Positions 25,512-36,251 of a stretch of DNA of 64,000 nucleotides are shown one piece after another (within the stretch, counting starts at the first letter, position 1; each line of letters starts with the position of its first letter). The notes under the pieces were generated by a model, which saw only the letters and a list, made by a program, of their open reading frames with translations, did no database searches and was not told where the DNA came from. The DNA comes from Zunongwangia sp. ESRF-bin46 (GTDB taxonomy: Bacteria; Bacteroidota; Bacteroidia; Flavobacteriales; Flavobacteriaceae), in assembly GCA_002631855.1 (NCBI GenBank), contig NTLF01000014.1:297951-361950 (forward strand), read 5' to 3'. The position numbers and the translations under genes are program-made.

Positions 25512-26045
25512 TTATTTTTCGCGAAGTCGTTTGTAAAATTTGTAGCCCAACATCAACAAAACTGAAAATGCAATAATACCCAAAACACCATATATCCAGT
25601 TTACAGCATTACGTAACATTACCAAAAAGATGACAGCAAATAAGATGATGGTTGCGCCTTCATTGAACAATCGCATAAAGTTTGAAGAATGCTTTACAAT
25701 ACCTTTTTGAAGCTGTTTGTAAATTTGGTGGCATTTTAAATGATATAAAATCAAAAGAAACACAAAGCCTAATTTTACTTGCATCCAAGCATCGGTTAAG
25801 TAAAATGGCCGTAACAAAATTAACCAAATGGCAAACCCAATAGCCAATATTGCCGAGGGCCACGTAATGATAGTCCAAAGCCGATTGGCCATGATTTTGA
25901 GTTGATTTCCTAAAATTTCTTTTTCAGGTGAAGTTTTTTCAGTAGCTTCAATTTGATATACAAAAAGCCGGACGATGTAAAATAATCCCGCAAACCAGGT
26001 GATTACAAAAATTAAATGCAGGGCTTTTATATAGTTGTATTCCAT
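25512..26045 (-). CDS. hemJ: Protoporphyrinogen IX oxidase HemJ (CopD-like family)
   Basis: KALHLIFVITWFAGLFYIVRLFVY, WMQVKL, RLFNE; located in the heme cluster. Confidence 0.85.
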   Translation of the reverse strand: MEYNYIKALHLIFVITWFAGLFYIVRLFVYQIEATEKTSPEKEILGNQLKIMANRLWTIITWPSAILAIGFAIWLILLRPFYLTDAWMQVKLGFVFLLILYHLKCHQIYKQLQKGIVKHSSNFMRLFNEGATIILFAVIFLVMLRNAVNWIYGVLGIIAFSVLLMLGYKFYKRLREK

Positions 26046-26090
26046 TTTTCAAAGGTACTAATTTAGAGGCTTCAAAAATTATATCTGAAA

Positions 26091-27437
26091 TTACTCAATC
26101 AATGTCTTTCTAACCTCCCGATTCAGAAAATACCCTGTTACTATAGTTGACAGAACATCGGCGATCGGGAACGATATCCAAACACCTAATTCGCCAAAAA
26201 AGTTAGGTAAAATTAAAATTAACGGAACAAAGAAAAATCCTTGTCTGGTAAGTGTTAATAATAATGCCGGCGTGGCTTTTCCAATGGCCTGAAAATAAGC
26301 TGACCCTATTAATTGAATTGCAATTATAGGAATTGCTAAAAACACCCAACGCATTGCTGAAGGCGTTTCAGCCAAAATAACTTCATCTGTTGTAAAGACT
26401 AAAACAATGGCATCTGGGAAGACCATAATCAAGATAAAAATCACTAAAGCAATTAAGCCAGCATACTTTATGGCTTTATTGATACTTTCCCTAACCCTTG
26501 GAAATTTATTAGCCCCGTAATTATATCCGGCAATGGGTAGAAACCCTTGTGTAACACCTAAAACAGGGAATAAAGCGAACATAAGCATACGCCCAATTAT
26601 TCCGTACATAGTCACCGAAGCTTCTCCTCCTAAATTAAAGAGAATATTGTTCATCAATAAATACGTAATACTTACAACCGCTTGTCGTGCTAAGGTTACA
26701 AAACCTAAAGCGCTTATTTCTTTTAAAATTGCCTTGTTGAGCCCAAAATGAGAAAAACTGATACGTAATTCAGATCGGTCACTTAAAAAGAACCAAAGTA
26801 TAAACAGAAAACACAACACATATGATGCTGTTGAAGCCCAAGCTGCCCCTGCCATTCCCATATCGAAGACATAAATTAAAATATAATCTAAGAACAAATT
26901 ACCTACTGATGGGATAATCATAGCAATCATAGCAATCTTTGGCTTCCCTTCGGCACGTATTACATTGTTCCCCATCATGGAAAGTGCCAAAACAGGAACC
27001 CCATACAATACAATGCGGTAGTAAATTTTAGCAGGTTCAAAGATGTCGCCTTTTCCTCCAAAAGCAGGGATTAACTCATTTACAAAGTAAAGACCAATGG
27101 CTGCCATTACAATTGTAATCAATAGGGTAAGGGTAATCTGATTTCCGAAGGTTTTAAGGGCTTTTTCTTTGTTATTGGCTCCCAATGCCCTAGATATAAT
27201 GGAAGAACCCCCAATACCAATGGCCATCCCCAAGGCGGCAATAAAAAAGGAAACAGGTAATACTACATTAATGGCTGCAATAGCAATAGAACCAATCCAG
27301 TTCCCTACAAAAATGGTGTCGACTAGAATATTTAATGACATCACCAAGATACCTATTGAAGCAGGAACAGACTGCTTGACCAATAGTTTACTAATGGGTT
27401 CTGTACCTAAACTGGCCGAACGGTTTTGTAATGCCAT
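26091..27437 (-). CDS. MATE family efflux transporter (MepA-like)
   Basis: 12 TM; LNILVDTIFVGN, RAEGKPK, GMAGAAWAS, WISFPIAD. Confidence 0.92.
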   Translation of the reverse strand: MALQNRSASLGTEPISKLLVKQSVPASIGILVMSLNILVDTIFVGNWIGSIAIAAINVVLPVSFFIAALGMAIGIGGSSIISRALGANNKEKALKTFGNQITLTLLITIVMAAIGLYFVNELIPAFGGKGDIFEPAKIYYRIVLYGVPVLALSMMGNNVIRAEGKPKIAMIAMIIPSVGNLFLDYILIYVFDMGMAGAAWASTASYVLCFLFILWFFLSDRSELRISFSHFGLNKAILKEISALGFVTLARQAVVSITYLLMNNILFNLGGEASVTMYGIIGRMLMFALFPVLGVTQGFLPIAGYNYGANKFPRVRESINKAIKYAGLIALVIFILIMVFPDAIVLVFTTDEVILAETPSAMRWVFLAIPIIAIQLIGSAYFQAIGKATPALLLTLTRQGFFFVPLILILPNFFGELGVWISFPIADVLSTIVTGYFLNREVRKTLIE

Positions 27438-27456: not shown

Positions 27457-28497
27457 TTATGCTATCGCTTTGTCTACATCGACAATACGCCATTCATCGA
27501 TCCAACCAGCGAGTAATTGAGCAAAATCGTCCCGATCATTTAAGCAAGGGACGGTTGTAAACTCTTTTCCTCCGGTTTCGTGGAATATTTCTTCGCCTTC
27601 CATCGCAATTTCTTCTAAAGTTTCAAGACAATCACTCACGAAAGCTGGGGTTACGACCGCCAATTTTTTTATTCCAGCTTTTCCCATACGTTCAATCGTA
27701 CGGTCGGTATACGGTTGTAGCCATGGGTCAAATCCCAATCGAGACTGGAAAGAAACAGAATAACTATTTTCTTTTAAGCCCAATTTTTCAGCAACCAACC
27801 GTGTGGTTTCAAAACATTGGTGACGATAACAATATTGGTGTGCTTTTGAAGAGGTGACACAACAAGTTCCATCAATTTTGCAATGGCTATTTGTTATATC
27901 GCTTTTTTTAATATGTCGTTCTGGGACACCGTGGTAACTGAATAATAAATGTTCGTAATCCAAGTCTTGAATATGCTCTTGAATACTTTTGGAAAGCACC
28001 TCAATATACTCTGGTCTGTTATAAAATGCAGGTAACGATGATATTTTTAACTGCGGAAAAAATTCTTCTCGAAGCTCTTCTACTTTCACGTCTATCGTTT
28101 CGGTAGTTGCCATGGCAAATTGTGGATATAACGGAATTACCAAAACCTCATCAACGCCTTGATCAACCAAATTTTGCAATCCTTTTTTCAACGTCATACT
28201 TCCATAGCGCATGGCTAATGATACCGGTAGCGTTACTTTATCTTGTACTTTTTCTTGTAGTCGTTCAGAAAGGACAATCAACGGCGAACCTTCATCCCAC
28301 CATATTTTTTGATAGGCTTCAGCACTTTTTTTAGGTCTGGTATTTAAAATAATACCTCGAACAATTAATATTCTTGCCCATCGAGGTACATCTATCACGC
28401 GTGGATCCATTAAAAACTCATCCAGATATTTTTTAACATCTTTAGGGTTGGTACTATCGGGCGAGCCAAGGTTAACAAGGAGGACTCCTTTTTTCAT
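27457..28497 (-). CDS. hemH: Ferrochelatase
   Basis: GVLLVNLGSP, LFSYHGVP, SFQSRLG, FVSDCLETLEEI; ATG 28497 preferred. Confidence 0.95.
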   Translation of the reverse strand: MKKGVLLVNLGSPDSTNPKDVKKYLDEFLMDPRVIDVPRWARILIVRGIILNTRPKKSAEAYQKIWWDEGSPLIVLSERLQEKVQDKVTLPVSLAMRYGSMTLKKGLQNLVDQGVDEVLVIPLYPQFAMATTETIDVKVEELREEFFPQLKISSLPAFYNRPEYIEVLSKSIQEHIQDLDYEHLLFSYHGVPERHIKKSDITNSHCKIDGTCCVTSSKAHQYCYRHQCFETTRLVAEKLGLKENSYSVSFQSRLGFDPWLQPYTDRTIERMGKAGIKKLAVVTPAFVSDCLETLEEIAMEGEEIFHETGGKEFTTVPCLNDRDDFAQLLAGWIDEWRIVDVDKAIA

Positions 28498-28586
28498 ATC
28501 GAATTTTTCTGTTGCAAAATTACTCGTATTAAAATGAATTATCAAACACCTGAAACATATAAAAACTATAAAGTTATTTGTGTTTC

Positions 28587-29477
28587 TTATGCTGAAAGAC
28601 TCATCAAATATTTTTTGGGTGTGGTACCGTACTTTTTCTTAAAAGCTGCAATAAAGTGGCTGGCTGCACTGTAGCCTACTTTTAACCCTACTTCGTTTAC
28701 ATTATGAGAACCGGTAGCCAATAATTGTCGCGCTACTTCCATTTTATAATCGAACAAAAAGCTAAAAACCGAATCACCATAAATCTGCTTAAACCCCTCT
28801 TTTAATTTATTGATAGGCAAGTTAATTTCATCAGCCAATTCCTGTAAAGTGGGCGGTTCTGCCATTTTATTGATAATAATCTGCTTGGCCCTTTTTATCT
28901 TAGTTACGTTATCTTCATCAGCTAAAAAGGGACATTGCTCTACATCCAAATCTGCTGGTCTATTAAAATAAAGGCTTAACAACTCGTACGCTTTCCCTTT
29001 AAAATACAAGGGTTTTACCGAAGGATGTAAGTTGTAATTCATTAATTGATTGAGCACAATGGCCATCGATGGTGATATACTCGCATCCTTATAATACTTC
29101 CTACCCTTATTTTCATCACTTAAAAAAGTTATGTAATTGGCTTCGGTTGAAAACAACGCATGGAATTTTTCAATAGGAAGCAATACCGAAAGTACCCAAG
29201 AATGGGCTGGAACATCAATATGTAACGGCAAATCCCGTTGTGGGTTATATAACAATAATGAGTTTTCCTCACTAAGCGGTAATGTGTAACTCCCCTCATT
29301 AAAAAGAAAGCTAGCCGACCCTTTAATGCAAAAGTGAAACTGAATAAAGTTAGATCCTATTTCTCGTTTAAAAGTCTGGTTATCATCCGTTTCATTGTTA
29401 AATTTTAGAATGAAAAACCCTTCGGAAATAAGTGTTTCTTCATAAAAACTTTCAGCGACATTTTTTTCAGAAATCAT
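28587..29477 (-). CDS. AraC family transcriptional regulator divergent from hemA
   Basis: C-terminal PPTLQELA...LKEGFKQIYG...VGYSAASHFIAAFKKKYG; contains Cys-Pro (EQCPF) in the linker. Confidence 0.92.
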   Translation of the reverse strand: MISEKNVAESFYEETLISEGFFILKFNNETDDNQTFKREIGSNFIQFHFCIKGSASFLFNEGSYTLPLSEENSLLLYNPQRDLPLHIDVPAHSWVLSVLLPIEKFHALFSTEANYITFLSDENKGRKYYKDASISPSMAIVLNQLMNYNLHPSVKPLYFKGKAYELLSLYFNRPADLDVEQCPFLADEDNVTKIKRAKQIIINKMAEPPTLQELADEINLPINKLKEGFKQIYGDSVFSFLFDYKMEVARQLLATGSHNVNEVGLKVGYSAASHFIAAFKKKYGTTPKKYLMSLSA

Positions 29478-29494
29478 AGCTAATTATTTAATCT

Positions 29495-29517
29495 TTATTT
29501 AGAATTGTTCTAAACAG
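29495..29517. promoter_or_regulatory. Fur-like operator upstream of araC-hemH
   Basis: TTATTTAGAATTGTTCTAAACAG, near-perfect palindrome ATTTAGAAT-N-RTTCTAAA, 17 nt upstream of the AraC start. Confidence 0.75.
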
Positions 29518-29560
29518 TGTAATAAAATTACCGCTCGAACGATGCGAAATTAGGGCATTT

Positions 29561-29578
29561 ATATGACAAATGTCATAT
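29561..29578. promoter_or_regulatory. 18-bp palindrome in the araC/hemA divergent region
   Basis: ATATGACA-AA-TGTCATAT. Confidence 0.5.
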
Positions 29579-29666
29579 TTTAGCAGAAATTAACACCGTT
29601 CGATATATTTGATACCGCAAGCGTTATTTTTTGACTATTATTGCCCTTACATTTGCGCCGTTAGGT

Positions 29667-30938
29667 ATGAAAAGAATTAACAATACACCTTTATCAACTT
29701 CTGAAGGGAATTTTTATGCTATTGGCCTTAATTATAAAAAGGCCGATGCTGAAGTCCGTGGTCATTTTAGTATTAACGACACAGCGCAAACAAACATCCT
29801 AAAACAGGCAAAACAAGATGGTATTCCATCATTAACTGTTATTTCAACTTGTAATCGTACCGAGTTGTATGGTTTTGCGCAACATCCTTTTCAGCTTATT
29901 AAATTATTGTGCGAACACACCCAAGGTACCATCGAAGAGTTTGAAAAAGTTGCTTACATCCATAAAAATGATGAAGCAATTTCGCACTTATTTAATGTTG
30001 GTACTGGGTTGGATAGTCAGATTTTAGGTGATTTTGAGATTATTAGCCAATTACGCAATGGCTTTCGCCGTTCAAAAAAACACGGATTACTTAATGCGTA
30101 TATGGAACGGTTAATCAATGCAGTAATTCAAGCTAGTAAACGTATTAAAAATGAAACCGAAATATCAACGGGTGCTACGTCGGTGAGTTTTGCTGCCGTT
30201 CAATATATAATGGCACACGTTCCTTATGTTTCAGAAAAAAATATTTTACTCTTCGGAACAGGAAAAATAGGTAGAAACACCTGTGAAAACTTAATTAAGC
30301 ATACCAAGAATGAGCACATTACGCTCATTAACCGAACCAAAGAACGCGCCGAAAAAATTGCAGGTAAGTTCAATCTTATCGTCAAAGATTACGCCGATAT
30401 ACAAAGTGAATTGGCTCAGACCGATGTCTTGGTCGTCGCTACAGGGGCGCAACAGCCTACTATTTCGAAAGAATTATTATTTATAAAAAAACCACTGTTA
30501 ATTTTAGATCTTTCCATTCCGCGAAATGTTTCAGAAGATGTAAAAGAAAATGAATTGGTTACGTTGGTGCACTTGGATGAATTATCTTCCGTTACCAACC
30601 AAACGTTGCAACACCGTGCTGAGCAGATACCGGTTGCAAAAGAAATAATCCAAGAGATAGAATCTGAATTTATCACTTGGGTACGTAACCGTCATTTTAT
30701 ACCAACCGTTAAGGCGTTAAAATCGAAACTTACTGAAATCAAGGCTGGTGAAATTGATTACCACCGCAAAAAACTGGAAGGCTTTAATGAGGAACAAGCT
30801 GAAATTATCAGTGACCGAATCATTCAAAAAATAACGACCCAAGTTGTAAACCACCTGAAACAAGCAAATGGATCTACCGAACATCATTTGCAAATGCTTG
30901 AAACCATGTTTCAGTTAGAAGAAAGTGAACGTGAATAA
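29667..30938 (+). CDS. hemA: Glutamyl-tRNA reductase
   Basis: STCNRTE catalytic Cys, GLDSQILGDFEI, FGTGKIG; ATG 29667 follows -7 box TACATTTG (29648-29655). Confidence 0.95.
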   Translation: MKRINNTPLSTSEGNFYAIGLNYKKADAEVRGHFSINDTAQTNILKQAKQDGIPSLTVISTCNRTELYGFAQHPFQLIKLLCEHTQGTIEEFEKVAYIHKNDEAISHLFNVGTGLDSQILGDFEIISQLRNGFRRSKKHGLLNAYMERLINAVIQASKRIKNETEISTGATSVSFAAVQYIMAHVPYVSEKNILLFGTGKIGRNTCENLIKHTKNEHITLINRTKERAEKIAGKFNLIVKDYADIQSELAQTDVLVVATGAQQPTISKELLFIKKPLLILDLSIPRNVSEDVKENELVTLVHLDELSSVTNQTLQHRAEQIPVAKEIIQEIESEFITWVRNRHFIPTVKALKSKLTEIKAGEIDYHRKKLEGFNEEQAEIISDRIIQKITTQVVNHLKQANGSTEHHLQMLETMFQLEESERE

Positions 30939-31845
30939 AACAATCCGTATTGGTACTCGCGATAGTGAATTGGCACTATGGCAAGCCAAGACCGTCCAAA
31001 ATCAACTTGAAAAATTAGGTTATAAAACTGAATTGGTCCCTGTAAAATCAACAGGAGACTTAATATTAGACCAACCACTATATGAAATGGGAATCACGGG
31101 TATTTTTACCAAAACCCTAGACGTTGCCATGCTCAACGGAACGGTGGATATCGCTGTACATAGCATGAAAGATGTACCTACCCATTTACCTAAAAGAATT
31201 GTGCAAACTGCTGTGTTACCAAGAGCAACAGCTACTGATATTTTAGCAACAAAAGGCAACTTTAATCCCGAGCACCCTTCTACAATAGCAACCGGTAGTC
31301 TTCGCCGAAAAGCACAATGGCTTAATCGCTATCCAAACCACACCGTGGTCGATTTACGCGGAAATGTAAACACTCGATTACAAAAACTTCAAGATAACAA
31401 TTGGCAAGGCGCCATTTTTGCAAAAGCCGGTTTGGAACGTATAAACGTATTGCCCAATAATTTTGAAACTTTAGATTGGATGATACCTGCTCCCGCCCAA
31501 GGCGCAATGGTGATTGTAGCCCTAGAAAAAGATGAATTTAGCATAGAAGCTACTTCAAAATTAAATAATACCGAAGCCGATATTTGCACTTATATTGAAC
31601 GCTCTTTTTTACAAAAATTAGAAGGCGGTTGTACTGCTCCTATTGGTGCATTGGCTACGTGTATTGATGATACCATTCAGTTTAAAGGGGTATTGTTTTC
31701 TTTAGACGGGCAAACAAAGTTAGAAGTCGCCAAGCAATGTTCAAAAAGTGATTACAAATCTTTAGGAATTAACTGCGCTGAAGAAATCCTAGATAACGGC
31801 GGAAAAGAATTAATGGAAGTAATAAAGTCTGAAATAGAAAAATAG
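30931..31845 (+). CDS. hemC: Hydroxymethylbilane synthase
   Basis: IGTRDSELALWQ, AVHSMKDVP, LRGNVNTRL, LEGGCTAPIGA; GTG start 30931 or 30925. Confidence 0.95.
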   Translation: MNKTIRIGTRDSELALWQAKTVQNQLEKLGYKTELVPVKSTGDLILDQPLYEMGITGIFTKTLDVAMLNGTVDIAVHSMKDVPTHLPKRIVQTAVLPRATATDILATKGNFNPEHPSTIATGSLRRKAQWLNRYPNHTVVDLRGNVNTRLQKLQDNNWQGAIFAKAGLERINVLPNNFETLDWMIPAPAQGAMVIVALEKDEFSIEATSKLNNTEADICTYIERSFLQKLEGGCTAPIGALATCIDDTIQFKGVLFSLDGQTKLEVAKQCSKSDYKSLGINCAEEILDNGGKELMEVIKSEIEK

Positions 31846-31852
31846 ACGCTTT

Positions 31853-32515
31853 ATGAAATCCATTCTTTCCACAAAAAAGTTTACCCTTGCTCAAAAAGAG
31901 TTGCTTTTAAACTCTGGATTAACTTTCGTGGAATACAACGCCATTTCTATTGAGTTTGTACCATTTAATGCTCCGAAGCAGATTGAAAATGCCATTTTTA
32001 CGAGTAAAAATGCTGTAAAAGCTGTTTTTTCTAATAAAAAGATAATTCCTGAAATTAAAAATTGCTTTTGCGTAGGTGAAAAAACAAAGGAACTTTTAGA
32101 AGAATATGGTCAAAAAGTGGTGAAAACCACTCAATATGGTTCAGAATTGGCCGATTGTTTGATTAAAAACCACAAAAATGACACATTTTACTTTTTCTGC
32201 GGAAATAAACGACTCGATACCATTCCAAAGGCTTTAAAAGAAGAAAATATTATGTTTTCAGAAATTGAAACTTACGAAACAGTATTAAACCCGAAACACT
32301 TTCAGCGTCAATTCGATGGAATTTTGTTTTTCAGTCCTAGTGCGGTACAAAGTTTTGTTTCAGAAAATAAACTAAAAAACTCAACTGCATTCTGCATTGG
32401 TACAACCACAGCGGCAGAAGCAAAAAAATATACCGAAAATGTCGTGATTGCTAATTCAACTTCGGTTGAAAGCGTGATTGCTAAAACGGTTAAAACATTA
32501 AAAAACTATGATTAA
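31853..32515 (+). CDS. hemD: Uroporphyrinogen-III synthase
   Basis: [29 protein letters not shown]; position after hemC. Confidence 0.88.
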
Positions 32516-33539
32516 AAACGATTTATTTCTACGGGCTTTAAAAGGGGAAACAGTAGAGCGCCCACCGGTTTGGATGATGCGACAAGCAGGGCGTTACCTT
32601 CCTGAATTTATGGAAATTAAAGCCAAGTACGACTTTTTCACACGTTGTCAAACCCCTGAACTTGCCAGTGAAATCACCGTACAACCCATTCGTAGATACG
32701 GAATGGATGCCGCTATTTTGTTTTGTGATATTTTAGTTATCCCACAAGCCATGAATATCGAGGTAGAGATGAAACCCGGCGTTGGCCCGTGGCTTCCAAA
32801 CCCGATTCGTAGCGAAAAAGACCTAGACAGCGTTATTGTTCCCGATATTCAAGATACGTTAGGGTACGTGATGGACGCCATTAAAATGACCAAGGAAAAG
32901 TTAAATGAGGAAATTCCGTTAATTGGTTTTGCCGGAAGTCCTTGGACCATTTTATGTTATTGCGTGCAAGGTCAAGGATCGAAAAACTTTGATAAGGCAA
33001 AAGAATTTTGTTTCACGCAACCTGTTGCAGCGCACACTTTACTGCAAAAAATAACTGATACTACGATTGCGTACTTAAAGGAAAAAGTAAAAGCAGGAGT
33101 TGATGCGGTGCAGGTTTTTGATAGCTGGGGCGGCATGTTATCGCCAACCGATTATCAGGAATTTAGTTGGCAGTATATCCAGCAGATTATCGATGCTTTA
33201 AAAGACGATGTTCCTGTTATTGCTTTCGGAAAAGGCTGTTGGTTTGCTATGGATACGATGGCGGCGAGTGGCGCATCTGCTTTAGGCGTTGATTGGACGT
33301 GTGACCCACAAACAGCTAGAAAGTTGACAGGAGGAAACATTACCTTGCAAGGAAACTTTGACCCTACTCGTTTGTTCAGTCCGCCATCTGAAATTAAAAA
33401 GATGGTCACACAAATGATCAATGACTTCGGAAAAGACAAATACATTGTGAATCTAGGCCACGGTATTTTACCTAATATTCCAATTGAAAACGCCGGTGCT
33501 TTTATTGAAGCGGTTAAAGAATATAAAGCCGATTCATGA
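32508..33539 (+). CDS. hemE: Uroporphyrinogen decarboxylase
   Basis: [36 protein letters not shown]. Confidence 0.96.
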
Positions 33540-34030
33540 ATGTTCTAAAACGCATCCGTCAATTAAGTGTCAAACAGTTGTGGCATTTATCGGTTGTGTT
33601 TATTAAACAACCTCTTTTAGTTTTTCCCACGTTGAATGCGACTAAGAAAACCATGAAAATCAGTGGTGATTTGTATGGGAAAGCGCATCATAAAAACGGA
33701 CCTGCTAATGCGTTTCGGCATGCAATGTGGAATATTTTGATAGCAAAAGCAGCGTTTAGAAAATTTCAGAATGTTGAAAAGAGCATAGCGTGGGCAGAAA
33801 AAGTGACCGATTTACACGAAAAATTAGCGCCAAACAGCCCCTTGGAAACTGCGATGGATCTACACAACAATAAGATGGGTCGCCAATTTTTTGAGGAAGT
33901 TTTAGATCTTTCAGAAGAGAAAATGATTGATTTACTTCAAAAAAGAGCAGAAAATGCTCAAAAAGTGACAAAAACAAGCGAAATTGAAGTTTTTAGAGAA
34001 GAGTTAGTTTTTATTAAAAAACCTTTATAA
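33536..34030 (+). CDS. DUF6973-like uncharacterised protein
   Basis: [23 protein letters not shown] motifs; ATGA overlap with the hemE stop. Confidence 0.65.
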
Positions 34031-34038
34031 AACAAATC

Positions 34039-34809
34039 ATGCTTAAAAACATTGTAAGCGCCATAAAAGCTTATTTTAAAACGTTTCAACTAATTTCAAA
34101 ACTGAAGTTATGGAAATATTTTGGCGTACCTATCTTAATAAGCTTGTTAACAGCTACGGCGATTGGCTTTTTAGCGTGGGGATTGAGCGATAATATTGGT
34201 GCGTTTATTTCAAAAATTTGGTTTTGGGAATGGGGCGCTGAAACCTTCAGAACCATTAGCGATGTACTGGGAGCCTTAATTATCATTGCCATTGGCCTCA
34301 TTCTCTACAAACATATCATTATGGCGTTGAGTGCGCCTTTTATGAGTCCCGTTTCAGAAAAAATTGAACAACATTTTTTAGGAACCATACATACGCATAG
34401 AAACACGACAAATGCATCTCAACTCTGGAGAGGCATACGAATTAACGTCCGTAATTTACTATTGGAACTGCTTTTTACTATTCCTATTTTATTACTCAGT
34501 TTAGTTCCGATTGTAAATATTTTCACTTCGGTTTTACTGTTTTTGGTACAATCGTATTACGCTGGCTTTGGAAATATGGATTATACGCTAGAACGGCATT
34601 TTACCTACAGAGAAAGTATTTCATTTGTAAAAAGAAACAAAGGCACTGCCTTAGGAAATGGGATTGTTTTTATGGCGATGCTTTTAATACCAGTTGTAGG
34701 TATTATTTTAGTCTTACCACTATCTGTAACCGCTGCAAGTACTGAAACAGTGAAGCTTTTAAAAGAAAGTAAGCAACTTAAAAATGCTGAAACACTTCAG
34801 AAAAAATAA
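34039..34809 (+). CDS. EI24/CysZ-like membrane protein
   Basis: Multi-TM; APFMSPVSEKIE, YYAGFGNMDYTLER. Confidence 0.8.
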   Translation: MLKNIVSAIKAYFKTFQLISKLKLWKYFGVPILISLLTATAIGFLAWGLSDNIGAFISKIWFWEWGAETFRTISDVLGALIIIAIGLILYKHIIMALSAPFMSPVSEKIEQHFLGTIHTHRNTTNASQLWRGIRINVRNLLLELLFTIPILLLSLVPIVNIFTSVLLFLVQSYYAGFGNMDYTLERHFTYRESISFVKRNKGTALGNGIVFMAMLLIPVVGIILVLPLSVTAASTETVKLLKESKQLKNAETLQKK

Positions 34810-34810
34810 T

Positions 34811-35347
34811 ATGGGAGTTTCTGAAACGACATACCTTTCCTATTTAACCGAAAAAGACGCGGAGTCTCTTTCTTGTTTAATGGTTGCAAACAAAGAACGG
34901 TTTCAGCGGTATTTTCCTAAAACGTTAGCTCAAAATTTATCTGTTTCCGATGCTAAAAGCTATATTCAGAAAAAAGCCCAAGAACAGAAAAATAAAACTG
35001 AATTTACCCTTGCTATAAAAGAGACTACTTCACAATTAGTTGCTGGTTTAGTTATCTTAAAAGATATAGATTGGAATAACAAAGAAGGAGAACTAGCGTA
35101 TTGTATAGGAGAAAATTTTGAAGGAAAAGGCCTTATGACAAAAGCAATTATTGAGGTTTCAAAAACTGCTTTTTCAGAAATACAGCTCTCCACATTAAAA
35201 ATAATAGTTCATAAAACGAATCCAGCCAGTATTCGCGTGGCTGAAAAAACAGGTTTTATCTGGAAAAAAACATTGCTAAAAGAATATACACCACCAGATG
35301 AATCGCCTTTGGATATGGAATTATATGAATTAGAAAGAAAAAATTAA
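34811..35347 (+). CDS. GNAT acetyltransferase (RimJ/RimL-like)
   Basis: ELAYCIGENFEGKGLMTKA, NPASIRVAEKTGF; ATG 34811 preferred over track 34784. Confidence 0.85.
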   Translation: MGVSETTYLSYLTEKDAESLSCLMVANKERFQRYFPKTLAQNLSVSDAKSYIQKKAQEQKNKTEFTLAIKETTSQLVAGLVILKDIDWNNKEGELAYCIGENFEGKGLMTKAIIEVSKTAFSEIQLSTLKIIVHKTNPASIRVAEKTGFIWKKTLLKEYTPPDESPLDMELYELERKN

Positions 35348-35348
35348 T

Positions 35349-36251
35349 ATGAAAGAAAAATTCGTAACCTACATAAAAAACCTACAAGATACGATCACTT
35401 TAAAACTTGAAACCATTGATGGCAAAGCTACTTTTAAAGAAGACCCTTGGGTTCGAAAAGAAGGTGGTGGCGGTCGTACCCGAGTGATTGAAAACGGAGC
35501 TGTTTTTGAAAAAGGTGGCGTAAATATTAGTGAAATACACGGCGAATTGCCTGAAAGCATGCAAAACTATTTTGGCGTAAAAGATGCCAACTTTTTTGCG
35601 TGCGGCTTGAGCTTGGTGTTACACCCAAAAAACCCTTTTGTGCCTACTGTTCATGCCAATTGGCGCTATTTTGAAATGTACGATCAAGAAGGAAGCATCG
35701 TTGATCAATGGTTTGGCGGCGGGCAAGATCTTACCCCGTATTATTTGTTTGAAGAAGATGCGACACACTTTCATCAAGTGAGTAGAACAGCTTGTGATAA
35801 GCATGACCCCAATTTCTACCCTAAATACAAAGCCCGTTGCGATGAATATTTTCACAATGCCCACAGAGGTGAAGGCAGAGGGATTGGCGGTTTGTTTTTC
35901 GATTATTTAAAGAAAACCGAAACGATGAGCATGGAAGACTGGTACAGCTTTGTCACCGAAGTTGGCGATAGTTTCCTAGAAGCTTATGTGCCAATTGTTG
36001 AAAAAAGAAAAAATATTGAATACACTCAAGAAAACCGTGATTGGCAAGAAATTCGTCGTGGCCGTTATGTAGAATTTAATTTGGTACATGATAAAGGCAC
36101 GCTCTTCGGTTTAAAAACCAATGGCCGTATTGAAAGTATTTTAATGAGTTTACCGCCTCATGTTCAATGGCGTTATGATCATAATCCAGAGCCTGGTAGT
36201 GAAGAAGAAAAACTGCTTGAGTGTTTAAAAAAGCCAAAAGAGTGGGTGTAA
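35349..36251 (+). CDS. hemF: Oxygen-dependent coproporphyrinogen III oxidase
   Basis: FEKGGVN, PTVHANWRYFE, WFGGGQDLTP, RRGRYVEFNLVHDKGTLFGL. Confidence 0.96.
   Translation: MKEKFVTYIKNLQDTITLKLETIDGKATFKEDPWVRKEGGGGRTRVIENGAVFEKGGVNISEIHGELPESMQNYFGVKDANFFACGLSLVLHPKNPFVPTVHANWRYFEMYDQEGSIVDQWFGGGQDLTPYYLFEEDATHFHQVSRTACDKHDPNFYPKYKARCDEYFHNAHRGEGRGIGGLFFDYLKKTETMSMEDWYSFVTEVGDSFLEAYVPIVEKRKNIEYTQENRDWQEIRRGRYVEFNLVHDKGTLFGLKTNGRIESILMSLPPHVQWRYDHNPEPGSEEEKLLECLKKPKEWV

What the first reader, a model, noticed from the sequence alone, without database searches (positions are those of the whole stretch)
28587..29666. AraC regulator with a Cys-Pro motif may be a heme sensor for the hem cluster
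Seen: the AraC gene is upstream of hemH and divergent from hemACDE..F, carries EQCPF just before its DNA-binding domain, and has a Fur-like box at its start. Known: Cys-Pro dipeptides are heme regulatory motifs in proteins such as Irr, ALAS and Bach1; I know of no described AraC-type heme-biosynthesis regulator. Inference: a Fur-to-AraC cascade balancing porphyrin synthesis with iron and heme levels.
Basis: inference. Interest (0 to 1): 0.65.

Follow-up and report, generated by a model that had tools for sequence, protein, structure and literature searches.

The report
Candidate haem-sensing AraC regulator of haem supply
A regulator gene between the haem-synthesis genes of this marine flavobacterium is kept next to haem-synthesis or haem-uptake genes across several Bacteroidota families and always carries a Cys-Pro plus His signature typical of haem sensors, so it is a strong, still untested candidate for the unknown switch that controls haem supply in this phylum.

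Summary
A 296-aa AraC-family gene (28587-29477, minus strand) lies upstream of hemH and divergent from hemA-C-D-E...hemF. It carries EQCPF (aa 180-184) just before its DNA-binding domain, and a Fur-like box lies 19 nt upstream of its ATG.

Cys182-Pro183 is present in all 130 Flavobacteriaceae orthologues examined (down to 35% identity) and in 7 homologues from other Bacteroidia families; His106 is invariant wherever it was scored. In the AlphaFold model the CP motif sits in the only disordered stretch, the interdomain linker.

Synteny with hemA holds in 79 of 80 named loci. Where hemA is not adjacent, the regulator is usually divergent from a TonB receptor plus HmuY haem-uptake operon instead (Cytophagales and one flavobacterial genome with no hemA match).

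A direct repeat with 21-bp spacing abuts the hemA promoter. It is the only such site in the genome, and it recurs before the haem-uptake operon.

Most likely this is an activator of haem supply that haem switches off through Cys182/His106. Haem binding and the sign of control are inferred, not shown.

Six first-reader notes had flagged the same gene arrangement in other genomes. No description was found in the literature searched.

The parts
28587..29477 (-). AraC-family regulator gene, 296 aa: cupin-like N-domain (about aa 13-133), helices 136-170, disordered linker 177-186, DNA-binding domain 188-295
   Evidence: ORF; Pfam HTH_18/HTH_AraC; AlphaFold2 model, mean pLDDT 84.7; Foldseek best full-length matches ToxT, Rns and CsvR
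28926..28940 (-). Codons for E180-Q-C182-P183-F184, the candidate haem regulatory (Cys-Pro) motif in the interdomain linker
   Evidence: Read from the sequence. CP[FY] present in 50/50, 80/80 and 7/7 orthologue sets. pLDDT below 50 for residues 177-186
29160..29162 (-). Codon of His106, invariant and co-occurring with Cys182-Pro183; candidate second haem ligand
   Evidence: Invariant. In 98 representatives, H, C and P are all present in 60; His and Cys are both absent in 33
28590..28916 (-). AraC-type two-HTH DNA-binding domain (aa 188-295)
   Evidence: Pfam; the only part with sequence relatives in the PDB; helices in the model
29497..29515 (.). Fur-like box ATTTAGAATTGTTCTAAAC
   Evidence: 17/19 match to the published R. 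anatipestifer box. The strict pattern TTAG-N7-CTAA is in 34/46 spacers and degenerate copies are visible in almost all others. In the own genome, sites with at most 1 mismatch precede TonB receptors, imelysin, sdhC, a cytochrome c gene and Mrp
29545..29552 (-). Candidate -7 box of the regulator's own promoter (TAATTTCG on the minus strand)
   Evidence: Inference from conserved CnAAATTAGGG / CAAAAATA in aligned spacers and the Bacteroidota -7 consensus TAnnTTTG (established knowledge); no transcript data
29561..29578 (.). Palindrome ATATGACAAATGTCATAT (core ATGACA-N2-TGTCAT); binding protein unknown
   Evidence: Only match to ATGAYA-N2-TRTCAT in the 3.33-Mb genome. Present in 23 of 46 spacers, always 57 or 67 nt from the proximal repeat. 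Similar palindromes occur in the Cytophagales loci and in the hemA-hemH spacer of a genome where the regulator gene has moved away
29597..29634 (+). Direct-repeat operator: TCGATAT (29600-29606) and GCGTTAT (29621-29627), 21 bp apart; proposed binding site of the regulator
   Evidence: Found in register in 44/46 spacers. Genome scan with a position weight matrix (PWM) built from those sites: 38.9 bits here, next best 14.2. The same architecture precedes a TonB-receptor/HmuY operon in L044 at 26.7 bits
29648..29655 (+). hemA -7 promoter box TACATTTG, 20 nt after the proximal repeat and 11 nt before the hemA ATG
   Evidence: Conserved T[AT]nn[TC]TTG at a fixed distance in 44/46 spacers; coordinates
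29667..33539 (+). hemA-hemC-hemD-hemE operon, the proposed target
   Evidence: NCBIfam and Pfam; ORFs overlapping or 7-8 nt apart; hemA divergent from the regulator in 79/80 named loci
35349..36251 (+). hemF (oxygen-dependent coproporphyrinogen oxidase), same strand after three inserted genes
   Evidence: NF003727 E 1.4e-126
27457..28545 (-). hemH (ferrochelatase), downstream of the regulator; likely ATG at 28497; own candidate -7 box TAATTTTG at 28515-28522
   Evidence: Pfam and NCBIfam; hemH downstream in 64/76 loci; a -7 box in 32/68 loci; no terminator on the minus strand between the genes
25512..27437 (-). MATE efflux gene and hemJ, continuing the hemH strand
   Evidence: Pfam MatE; TIGR00701 HemJ-like, below its cut-off

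Best explanation
The gene encodes a dedicated AraC-family activator of haem supply.

Proposed mechanism:
1. A dimer binds two 17-bp half-sites in direct repeat, 21 bp apart. The proximal half-site abuts the -33 region of the hemA promoter, the position of a class II activator.
2. Binding turns on hemA-C-D-E, the committed steps of haem synthesis.
3. In relatives without adjacent hem genes, the same kind of regulator sits beside a TonB receptor/HmuY haem-uptake operon; in the flavobacterial case that operon carries the same kind of site.
4. Haem is the signal. When haem accumulates, it is ligated by Cys182 of the Cys-Pro motif in the flexible interdomain linker and probably by His106 of the cupin-like domain. 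This ties the DNA-binding domain to the sensor domain and ends activation, giving negative feedback.
5. A Fur-type box between the regulator's promoter and its start codon adds iron control over the amount of regulator.

Shown here: the anatomy, the conservation, the synteny, and the uniqueness and position of the repeat.

Inferred: that this protein binds the repeat, that it activates, that haem is the ligand, that the haem-free form is the active one, and which way Fur acts.
For: 1. Near-universal single-copy orthologue.
- Found in 144 of 150 Flavobacteriaceae genera sampled and 28/28 in a second sample.
- There is no full-length paralogue in the own genome.

2. Synteny.
- hemA is divergent in 46/50 loci and in 79/80 named loci.
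- The same hemH-regulator-hemA-C-E-F layout occurs in another Bacteroidia family at 39% identity (L142).

3. Link to haem when hem genes are not adjacent.
- Six homologues (33-45% identity, two other Bacteroidia families; relatives of one of them are named Cyclobacteriaceae/Cytophagales) are divergent from a TonB receptor plus a Pfam HmuY protein.
- The same is true in a flavobacterial genome with no hemA match at 95% completeness.

4. Operator.
- The 21-bp direct repeat is in register with the -7 box in 44/46 spacers.
- It is unique in the genome: 38.9 bits against 14.2 for the next best site.
- It recurs before the haem-uptake operon of L044 at 26.7 bits.
- Analogous GGCAT/GGTAT repeats with 21-bp spacing precede the Cytophagales receptors and the L142 hemA.

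5. Sensor signature.
- C182, P183 and H106 are invariant.
- In 98 full-length representatives that are under 50% identical to each other, all three are present in 60; His and Cys are both absent in 33, and 5 have one without the other.
- More distant relatives of 330-350 aa lack all three.
- CP is followed by F or Y and then a hydrophobic residue, as in classical CP motifs (my knowledge).
- CP lies in the one low-confidence segment, residues 177-186.
- Cys-Pro with Cys as axial haem ligand is the classical haem regulatory motif, used by Irr (review PMC11442138).

6. Logic. One activator architecture at both a synthesis promoter and an uptake promoter fits 'low haem switches on supply'. It fits an iron sensor poorly, because iron would be expected to push the two targets in opposite directions.
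Against: - No biochemical or expression data exist.
- The coupling of His106 with CP is largely explained by shared ancestry. On a tree there are only 4 well-supported independent contrasts, and the sign test cannot reach significance (median p 0.5).
- A single Cys plus a single His could equally ligate a metal or a cluster across a dimer, or act as a thiol switch.
- The cupin pocket could bind a porphyrin without any role for CP.
- No model coordinates were available, so the distance between His106 and the linker is unknown.
- A second conserved, genome-unique element, the palindrome at 29561-29578, has no assigned binding protein. It could belong to another regulator that is the true sensor.
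- Relatives such as PchR, as I recall them, are activated by their ligand, which would be the opposite sign.
Confidence: 0.55

Rival explanations
1. The regulator does control the hem and hmu genes, but it senses a tetrapyrrole intermediate (protoporphyrin IX or coproporphyrin) or haem inside the cupin-like pocket. This would resemble ToxT and Rns, which bind fatty acids. Cys-Pro and His106 would be structural hinge residues rather than iron ligands.
For: - The fold resembles ToxT, Rns and CsvR, whose deposited structures include fatty-acid-bound forms.
- Several pocket-side residues of the beta domain are also invariant: N28, F47, G53, F57, F59, Y64, Y77, N78.
- Sensing protoporphyrin would suit the gene's position upstream of ferrochelatase.
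Against: - A hinge role does not explain why Cys, rather than any small residue, is invariant down to 33% identity.
- It does not explain why His106 tracks CP.
- Haem auxotrophs that keep the regulator beside HmuY uptake genes make no protoporphyrin.
Confidence: 0.15
2. The Cys/His pair senses iron, an Fe-S cluster or redox state, for example as 2 Cys + 2 His across a dimer or as a one-Cys thiol switch. Haem synthesis would then be matched to iron or oxidative stress rather than to haem itself.
For: - Only one Cys and one His per monomer are invariant, which suits an inter-subunit site.
- The locus is already wired to a Fur-type box.
- AraC-family thiol sensors exist, e.g. RclR (named; mechanism from my knowledge).
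Against: - The same activator layout serves a haem-synthesis operon and a haem-uptake operon. Iron would be expected to drive these in opposite directions.
- Iron control is already supplied by the separate Fur-like box.
- Pro after Cys, followed by an aromatic residue, is characteristic of haem motifs rather than of metal or thiol-switch sites (my knowledge).
Confidence: 0.12
3. The protein is a ligand-independent activator whose amount alone is regulated, by Fur and by the factor that binds the palindrome. CP and His are conserved for folding or for contact with RNA polymerase.
For: - Two further conserved operators lie at its own promoter side.
- Some AraC proteins, such as MarA and SoxS, work by abundance (my knowledge).
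Against: - It retains a full cupin-like sensor/dimerisation domain with many invariant residues. Abundance-controlled members lack such a domain.
- The CP linker is predicted to be disordered, which is not a folding core.
Confidence: 0.1
4. The adjacency is historical and the protein regulates something else; the direct repeat is bound by another factor.
For: In G035 and G058 the gene lies next to a DUF5686 outer-membrane gene, away from hemA.
Against: - Adjacency to hemA holds in 79/80 loci.
- Adjacency to haem-uptake genes was acquired independently in other families.
- The repeat is unique in the genome.
- In G035 and G058 a CGTTATTTTTT half-site remains upstream of hemA.
Confidence: 0.03

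Closest known systems
Irr (Fur family, Bradyrhizobium and other alpha-proteobacteria)
   Same: A bacterial transcription factor that ties haem synthesis to haem and iron. It binds haem through a Cys-Pro haem regulatory motif plus histidines (PMC11442138).
   Different: Unrelated fold (Fur family, not AraC). Irr represses hemB under iron limitation and is inactivated or degraded by haem. Here the architecture suggests an activator at the hemA -33 region, and iron input comes from a separate Fur-like box.
HbrL (LysR family, Rhodobacter capsulatus)
   Same: Activates hem genes when haem is absent; the haem-bound form represses them (PMC11442138). This is the same regulatory logic as proposed here.
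   Different: LysR fold, no CP motif reported in the review, different phylum.
PchR / YbtA / AlcR / RhrA-type AraC regulators of siderophore systems
   Same: AraC family; genes lie beside TonB receptor and biosynthesis genes. As I recall, the ligand is an iron chelate, they bind repeats overlapping the -35 region, and they are combined with Fur. One cluster member of a CP-bearing relative carries a JGI name that begins 'AraC family transcriptional regulator, transcriptional activator of the genes for ...', which I take to be the PchR orthology name.
   Different: No curated model of these families matches beyond the DNA-binding domain. They lack the CP/His signature. As I recall, they are switched on by their ligand, whereas the proposal here is switch-off.
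ToxT / Rns / CsvR (AraC family, enteric bacteria)
   Same: Best full-length structural matches: cupin-like N-domain, three helices, two-HTH domain (Foldseek E 1e-11 to 1e-8). Their deposited structures include fatty-acid-bound forms; as I recall, that ligand holds the two domains together and switches the protein off, which is a mechanical analogue of the proposal.
   Different: 12-18% identity and TM-score only 0.33-0.42, because the domain orientation differs. Fatty-acid ligands, virulence regulons, no CP motif.
Eukaryotic CP-motif haem sensors (Rev-erb beta, Bach1, HO-2, IRP2, ALAS1)
   Same: Cys-Pro followed by a hydrophobic residue in a flexible region, often with a His as second axial ligand (review, and my knowledge).
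   Different: Unrelated proteins. The comparison is of the motif only.

Membership tests
AraC/XylS family transcription factors | C-terminal domain of about 100 aa with two helix-turn-helix motifs | tested here: met
   Pfam HTH_18 E 2.8e-18 (66.4 bits, cut-off 33.6) and HTH_AraC (26.8, cut-off 26.6). PDB profile hits to AraC, XylR, GadX, MarA and Rob DNA-binding domains.
AraC/XylS family transcription factors | N-terminal cupin-like ligand/dimerisation domain in the two-domain members | tested here: met
   AlphaFold2 model has beta-strands 13-101 plus helices 136-170. Foldseek matches ToxT and Rns full length and the AraC and BgaR N-domains. No Pfam model matches aa 1-190.
Proteins with a haem regulatory (Cys-Pro) motif | Cys-Pro dipeptide followed by a hydrophobic residue | tested here: met
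   E-Q-C182-P183-F-L; CP[FY] present in 130/130 Flavobacteriaceae orthologues and 7/7 from other families.
Proteins with a haem regulatory (Cys-Pro) motif | Motif in an exposed, flexible segment | tested here: met
   Residues 177-186 are one of only two model segments with pLDDT below 50; the other is the N-terminus, residues 1-7. This is a prediction, not a measurement.
Proteins with a haem regulatory (Cys-Pro) motif | Reversible haem binding with thiolate ligation (Soret shift) that is lost in a Cys mutant | not testable with these tools
   Needs purified protein.
Proteins with a haem regulatory (Cys-Pro) motif | Haem changes the protein's activity (DNA binding, stability) | not testable with these tools
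PchR/YbtA-type siderophore-responsive AraC regulators | Sequence membership beyond the DNA-binding domain | tested here: inconclusive
   NCBIfam hits (Btr, RhrA and others) cover only aa ~185-291 and score far below their cut-offs. The only link is a truncated source name for one cluster member.
PchR/YbtA-type siderophore-responsive AraC regulators | Gene adjacent to a TonB-dependent receptor and/or the biosynthesis genes of the iron chelate it responds to | tested here: met
   Haem biosynthesis genes or a TonB receptor plus HmuY.
Fur regulon (Flavobacteriia-type box) | Match to ATTTAGA-N5-TCTAAAT in a promoter region, with the same box at iron-uptake genes | tested here: met
   17/19 match at 29497-29515. 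Sites with at most 1 mismatch precede two TonB receptor genes (paired boxes) and an imelysin-like gene. Binding by this organism's Fur was not tested.
Irr / HbrL (known haem-responsive regulators of hem genes) | Fur-family or LysR-family fold | tested here: not met
   AraC fold. The resemblance is functional only.

The most novel reading that the evidence does not exclude
This is the founding member of an undescribed family of haem-sensing AraC regulators, found in all or nearly all Flavobacteriaceae sampled and in some other Bacteroidia families such as those of Cytophagales. Haem would bridge a Cys-Pro motif in the interdomain linker and a His of the cupin domain, switching off a class II activator of haem synthesis (hemA operon) or haem uptake (TonB receptor/HmuY). 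The conserved palindrome, phased 57 or 67 nt from the activator site, may be a second binding mode of the same protein, analogous to AraC looping.
Probability: 0.45. Interest if true: 0.8.

Novelty: new variant of a known kind. Interest (0 to 1): 0.7.

Why it matters
As far as I know and could find, how Bacteroidota control haem synthesis is not known. The haem-responsive regulators listed in a 2024 review belong to the Fur, MarR, TetR and LysR families and to two-component systems; none is AraC-type and none is from this phylum. Six full-text searches found no description of this protein.

The locus offers a complete and simple hypothesis: one protein, one invariant Cys-Pro/His pair, one unique operator and one Fur box. 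It can be tested in genetically tractable flavobacteria.

If it holds, it would:
- add a new fold to the haem-sensor repertoire;
- explain how these abundant marine and soil bacteria avoid porphyrin toxicity;
- explain control of HmuY-type haem uptake in relatives that cannot make haem;
- give genome annotation a specific name for a gene now labelled only 'AraC family'.

Tried and rejected
- **Other regulon members.** The PWM of the direct repeat finds only the hemA site. The next hit (14.2 bits, inside hemH, antisense) is probably chance.
- **TCGATAT at the hemH start codon.** This copy in the window is not conserved (3 of 68 loci), so it was rejected as an operator.
- **Statistical proof of His106/CP coupling.** Too few independent contrasts on the tree: 4 on supported branches, median p 0.5. 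The coupling is reported as co-occurrence only.
- **Genome-wide enrichment of the Fur-like box.** The loose pattern TTAG-N7-CTAA is not enriched (37 found against about 116 expected from composition). Only the full half-sites are informative.
- **Palindrome as a classical Fur-family box.** It is 8-2-8, whereas the classical Fur/PerR/Zur boxes are 7-1-7 (my knowledge), and it is unique in the genome. It was left unassigned.
- **Sigma-70 promoter and terminator scan.** Not informative for Bacteroidota promoters; no terminator between the regulator and hemH.
- **PDB search by sequence.** Only the DNA-binding domain matches.
- **Model coordinates.** Not available in the Python box, so the Cys182-His106 distance could not be measured.
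- **Gene context of the few close relatives that lack CP and His** (P0140, P0161, P0162, P0182). Not examined, because those proteins came from a tool whose output the context look-up does not accept.
Full report
**1. What is there**

The window is contig C14:297951-361950 of a 3.33-Mb Flavobacteriaceae genome. Its closest named relatives are Marixanthomonas and Aequorivita.

ORF 28587-29477 (minus strand) encodes a 296-aa protein with Pfam HTH_18 at aa 214-291; no Pfam family matches aa 1-190.

Downstream on the same strand are hemH, a MATE efflux gene and hemJ. On the other strand, starting 189 nt away, are hemA, hemC, hemD and hemE. These are followed by DUF6973, a CysZ/EI24-like membrane protein and a GNAT acetyltransferase, and then hemF.

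EQCPF is at aa 180-184, and the protein has only two cysteines. A box ATTTAGAATTGTTCTAAAC lies at 29497-29515, 19 nt upstream of the ATG.

**2. Conservation of the gene and its position**

A single full-length orthologue was found in 144 of 150 Flavobacteriaceae genera sampled, at 36-94% identity. It was also found in 28 of 28 genomes in a second sample. Other AraC genes in the own genome match only in the DNA-binding domain.

Synteny counts:
- In 50 loci from those genomes, hemA is divergent from the regulator in 46, and hemH usually follows.
- In 80 further loci from named species, hemA is divergent in 79; the exception has no upstream flank.
- In those 80 loci, hemH follows within 2.5 kb in 64 of the 76 with enough downstream flank.
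- The same layout, hemH-regulator-hemA-hemC-hemE-hemF, occurs in another Bacteroidia family at 39% identity (L142).

**3. The informative exceptions**

Two Flavobacteriaceae genomes have no hemA match (95% and 99% complete) yet keep the regulator. In one of them (L044) the regulator is divergent from a TonB-dependent receptor followed by a Pfam HmuY protein; in the other the contig ends at the regulator gene.

Six homologues from two other Bacteroidia families (33-45% identity; relatives of one of them are named Cyclobacteriaceae/Cytophagales) are all divergent from a TonB receptor plus an HmuY-family protein. HmuY proteins are the haem-binding lipoproteins of Bacteroidota haem-uptake systems (established knowledge).

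Across the subfamily, then, the neighbour is either haem synthesis or haem uptake.

In two further genomes the gene has moved next to a DUF5686 outer-membrane gene. There, hemA and hemH are left directly divergent, and a CGTTATTTTTT half-site remains upstream of hemA.

**4. The Cys-Pro test**

Cys182-Pro183 is present in all 50 genus-level orthologues. It is also present in all 80 named loci and in all 7 homologues from other families. It is followed by F or Y and then a hydrophobic residue.

Among the residues outside the DNA-binding domain that are invariant or nearly so (N28, Q46, F105, H106, Q144, K162, E165, F171, C182, P183), His106 stands out.

An exhaustive search of 1.84 billion cluster representatives gave 103 relatives at E below 1e-30. 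Among 98 full-length representatives, the pattern was:

| His106 / Cys182 / Pro183 | Representatives |
|---|---|
| All three present | 60 |
| His and Cys both absent | 33 |
| CP without His | 3 |
| His without CP | 2 |

K162, E165 and Q144 are conserved in both groups, so they belong to the fold. CP and His define a subfamily. The CP-less relatives include proteins of 330-350 aa from cyanobacteria, Chloroflexota and spirochaetes.

One caution applies. On a tree built without these columns, CP changes state 8 times and His 7 times. However, only 4 well-supported independent contrasts exist, so the coupling cannot be shown statistically.

**5. Structure**

AlphaFold2 on a 64-sequence alignment gives mean pLDDT 84.7. 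The model has:
- a beta-rich cupin-like domain (strands 13-101);
- a short helix at 102-108 carrying His106;
- helices 136-146 and 152-170;
- a segment at 177-186 with pLDDT below 50 that contains Cys182-Pro183;
- the two-HTH domain from residue 188.

Foldseek finds ToxT, Rns and CsvR as the best full-length matches and the AraC and BgaR N-domains for the sensor part. By sequence, only the DNA-binding domain has relatives in the PDB.

So the CP motif sits in the flexible tether between sensor and DNA-binding domains. That is where a ligand-dependent clamp would have most effect. It is also the kind of disordered context in which haem regulatory motifs are found (review PMC11442138, and my knowledge).

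**6. The control region**

Aligning 46 spacers shows three conserved elements.

(a) The Fur-like box.
- It matches 17 of 19 positions of the box predicted for Riemerella anatipestifer. Purified Fur shifted promoter fragments containing that box (PMC5609570).
- Recognisable copies occur in almost all spacers.
- In this genome, sites with at most one mismatch in the 14 half-site positions precede two TonB receptor genes (as paired boxes) and an imelysin-like gene.
- They also precede sdhC, a multihaem cytochrome c gene and the Fe-S carrier Mrp. These gene identities were read from the translated sequences, not from family searches.
- The box therefore marks iron uptake and iron use alike, and its sign at this locus cannot be inferred.

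(b) The palindrome ATATGACAAATGTCATAT at 29561-29578.
- It is the only match to its pattern in the genome.
- It is present in half of the spacers, always 57 or 67 nt from the proximal repeat. The difference is one helical turn.
- Similar palindromes occur in the Cytophagales loci.
- One also occurs in the hemA-hemH spacer of a genome where the regulator gene has moved away.
- Its binding protein is unknown. Its half-site (TGAYA) resembles the repeat core (CGAYA), so a second binding mode of the same protein is possible.

(c) The direct repeat, TCGATAT (29600-29606) and GCGTTAT (29621-29627), 21 bp apart.
- The proximal copy ends 20 nt before the -7 box TACATTTG (29648-29655), which lies 11 nt before the hemA ATG.
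- It is in register in 44 of 46 spacers.
- A position weight matrix (PWM) built from these sites scores 38.9 bits here, against 14.2 bits for the next best site in the genome.
- It scores 26.7 bits before the TonB receptor/HmuY operon of L044.
- The Cytophagales loci and L142 have GGCAT/GGTAT repeats with the same 21-bp spacing and the same position.

Two half-sites of about 17 bp in direct repeat, two helical turns apart and overlapping the -35 equivalent, is the classical AraC-family activator layout (established knowledge of AraC I1-I2).

**7. Mechanism and its limits**

The most economical reading has four parts:
1. The protein is a class II activator of haem supply.
2. It is active without ligand.
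3. Haem ligated by Cys182 and His106 locks it in an inactive form.
4. Fur sets how much of it is made.

The sign is inferred from logic only. One activator layout serves both a synthesis operon and an uptake operon, and only 'low haem' makes sense of both.

The rivals are listed with their probabilities in the Rival explanations section:
- a porphyrin bound in the cupin pocket;
- an iron, Fe-S or thiol switch;
- control by abundance alone;
- chance adjacency.

**8. Known or new**

Six full-text searches found no paper describing an AraC-type regulator of hem or hmuY genes in Bacteroidota, or an AraC-type haem sensor. A 2024 review of bacterial haem-responsive regulators lists Irr, PefR, HrtR, HbrL and HssRS/ChrSA-type systems, but no AraC member and nothing from this phylum.

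Six first-reader notes of this scan had flagged the same gene arrangement in other genomes; none had been followed up.

I rate it a new variant of a known kind: a known fold and a known haem motif in a combination and role not yet described. It is well supported by comparative evidence but biochemically unproven.

Noticed in passing
window 26091-27437 (-): A MATE efflux gene sits between hemH and hemJ. A MATE gene lies downstream of the regulator, on the hemH strand, in 50 of 76 named Flavobacteriaceae loci. It may export a porphyrin or haem-related compound.
   Followed up: partly
window 33536-35347 (+): Three non-haem genes are inserted between hemE and hemF on the same strand: DUF6973, a CysZ/EI24-like membrane protein and a GNAT acetyltransferase.
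   Followed up: no
own genome C14:234489, C14:83456, C14:678682 (outside the window): Fur-like boxes with at most one half-site mismatch also precede sdhC, a multihaem cytochrome c gene and the Fe-S carrier Mrp/ApbC (gene identities read from the translations). This suggests direct Fur-type control of iron-using proteins, with unknown sign.
   Followed up: partly
window 29561-29578: The palindrome ATATGACAAATGTCATAT is unique in the genome and conserved across families. It keeps a fixed distance of 57 or 67 nt from the activator site, but no binding protein can be assigned.
   Followed up: partly
window 28206-28243 (+, inside hemH, antisense): This is the second-best match to the hemA operator matrix (14.2 bits). 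GATACCGGTAGCGTTAC resembles GATACCGCAAGCGTTAT. It is probably chance.
   Followed up: no
G146 (L044) and G011 (L045): Two Flavobacteriaceae genomes (95% and 99% complete) have no hemA match yet keep the regulator. In L044 it lies beside a TonB receptor, an HmuY protein and a 232-aa membrane protein with no Pfam family. These are likely haem auxotrophs.
   Followed up: partly
L138 9863-10567; L044 7775-8473: A membrane protein of about 232 aa with no Pfam family follows HmuY in both a Cytophagales and a flavobacterial haem-uptake operon. It could be an inner-membrane component of the system.
   Followed up: no
L038-L043 (distant Flavobacteriaceae genera): In most of these loci an extra TCGATAC half-site lies directly after the hemA -7 box (for example TACTTTTGTCGATACTTATTG), and the Fur-like box lies next to the distal repeat rather than next to the regulator's start.
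   Followed up: no
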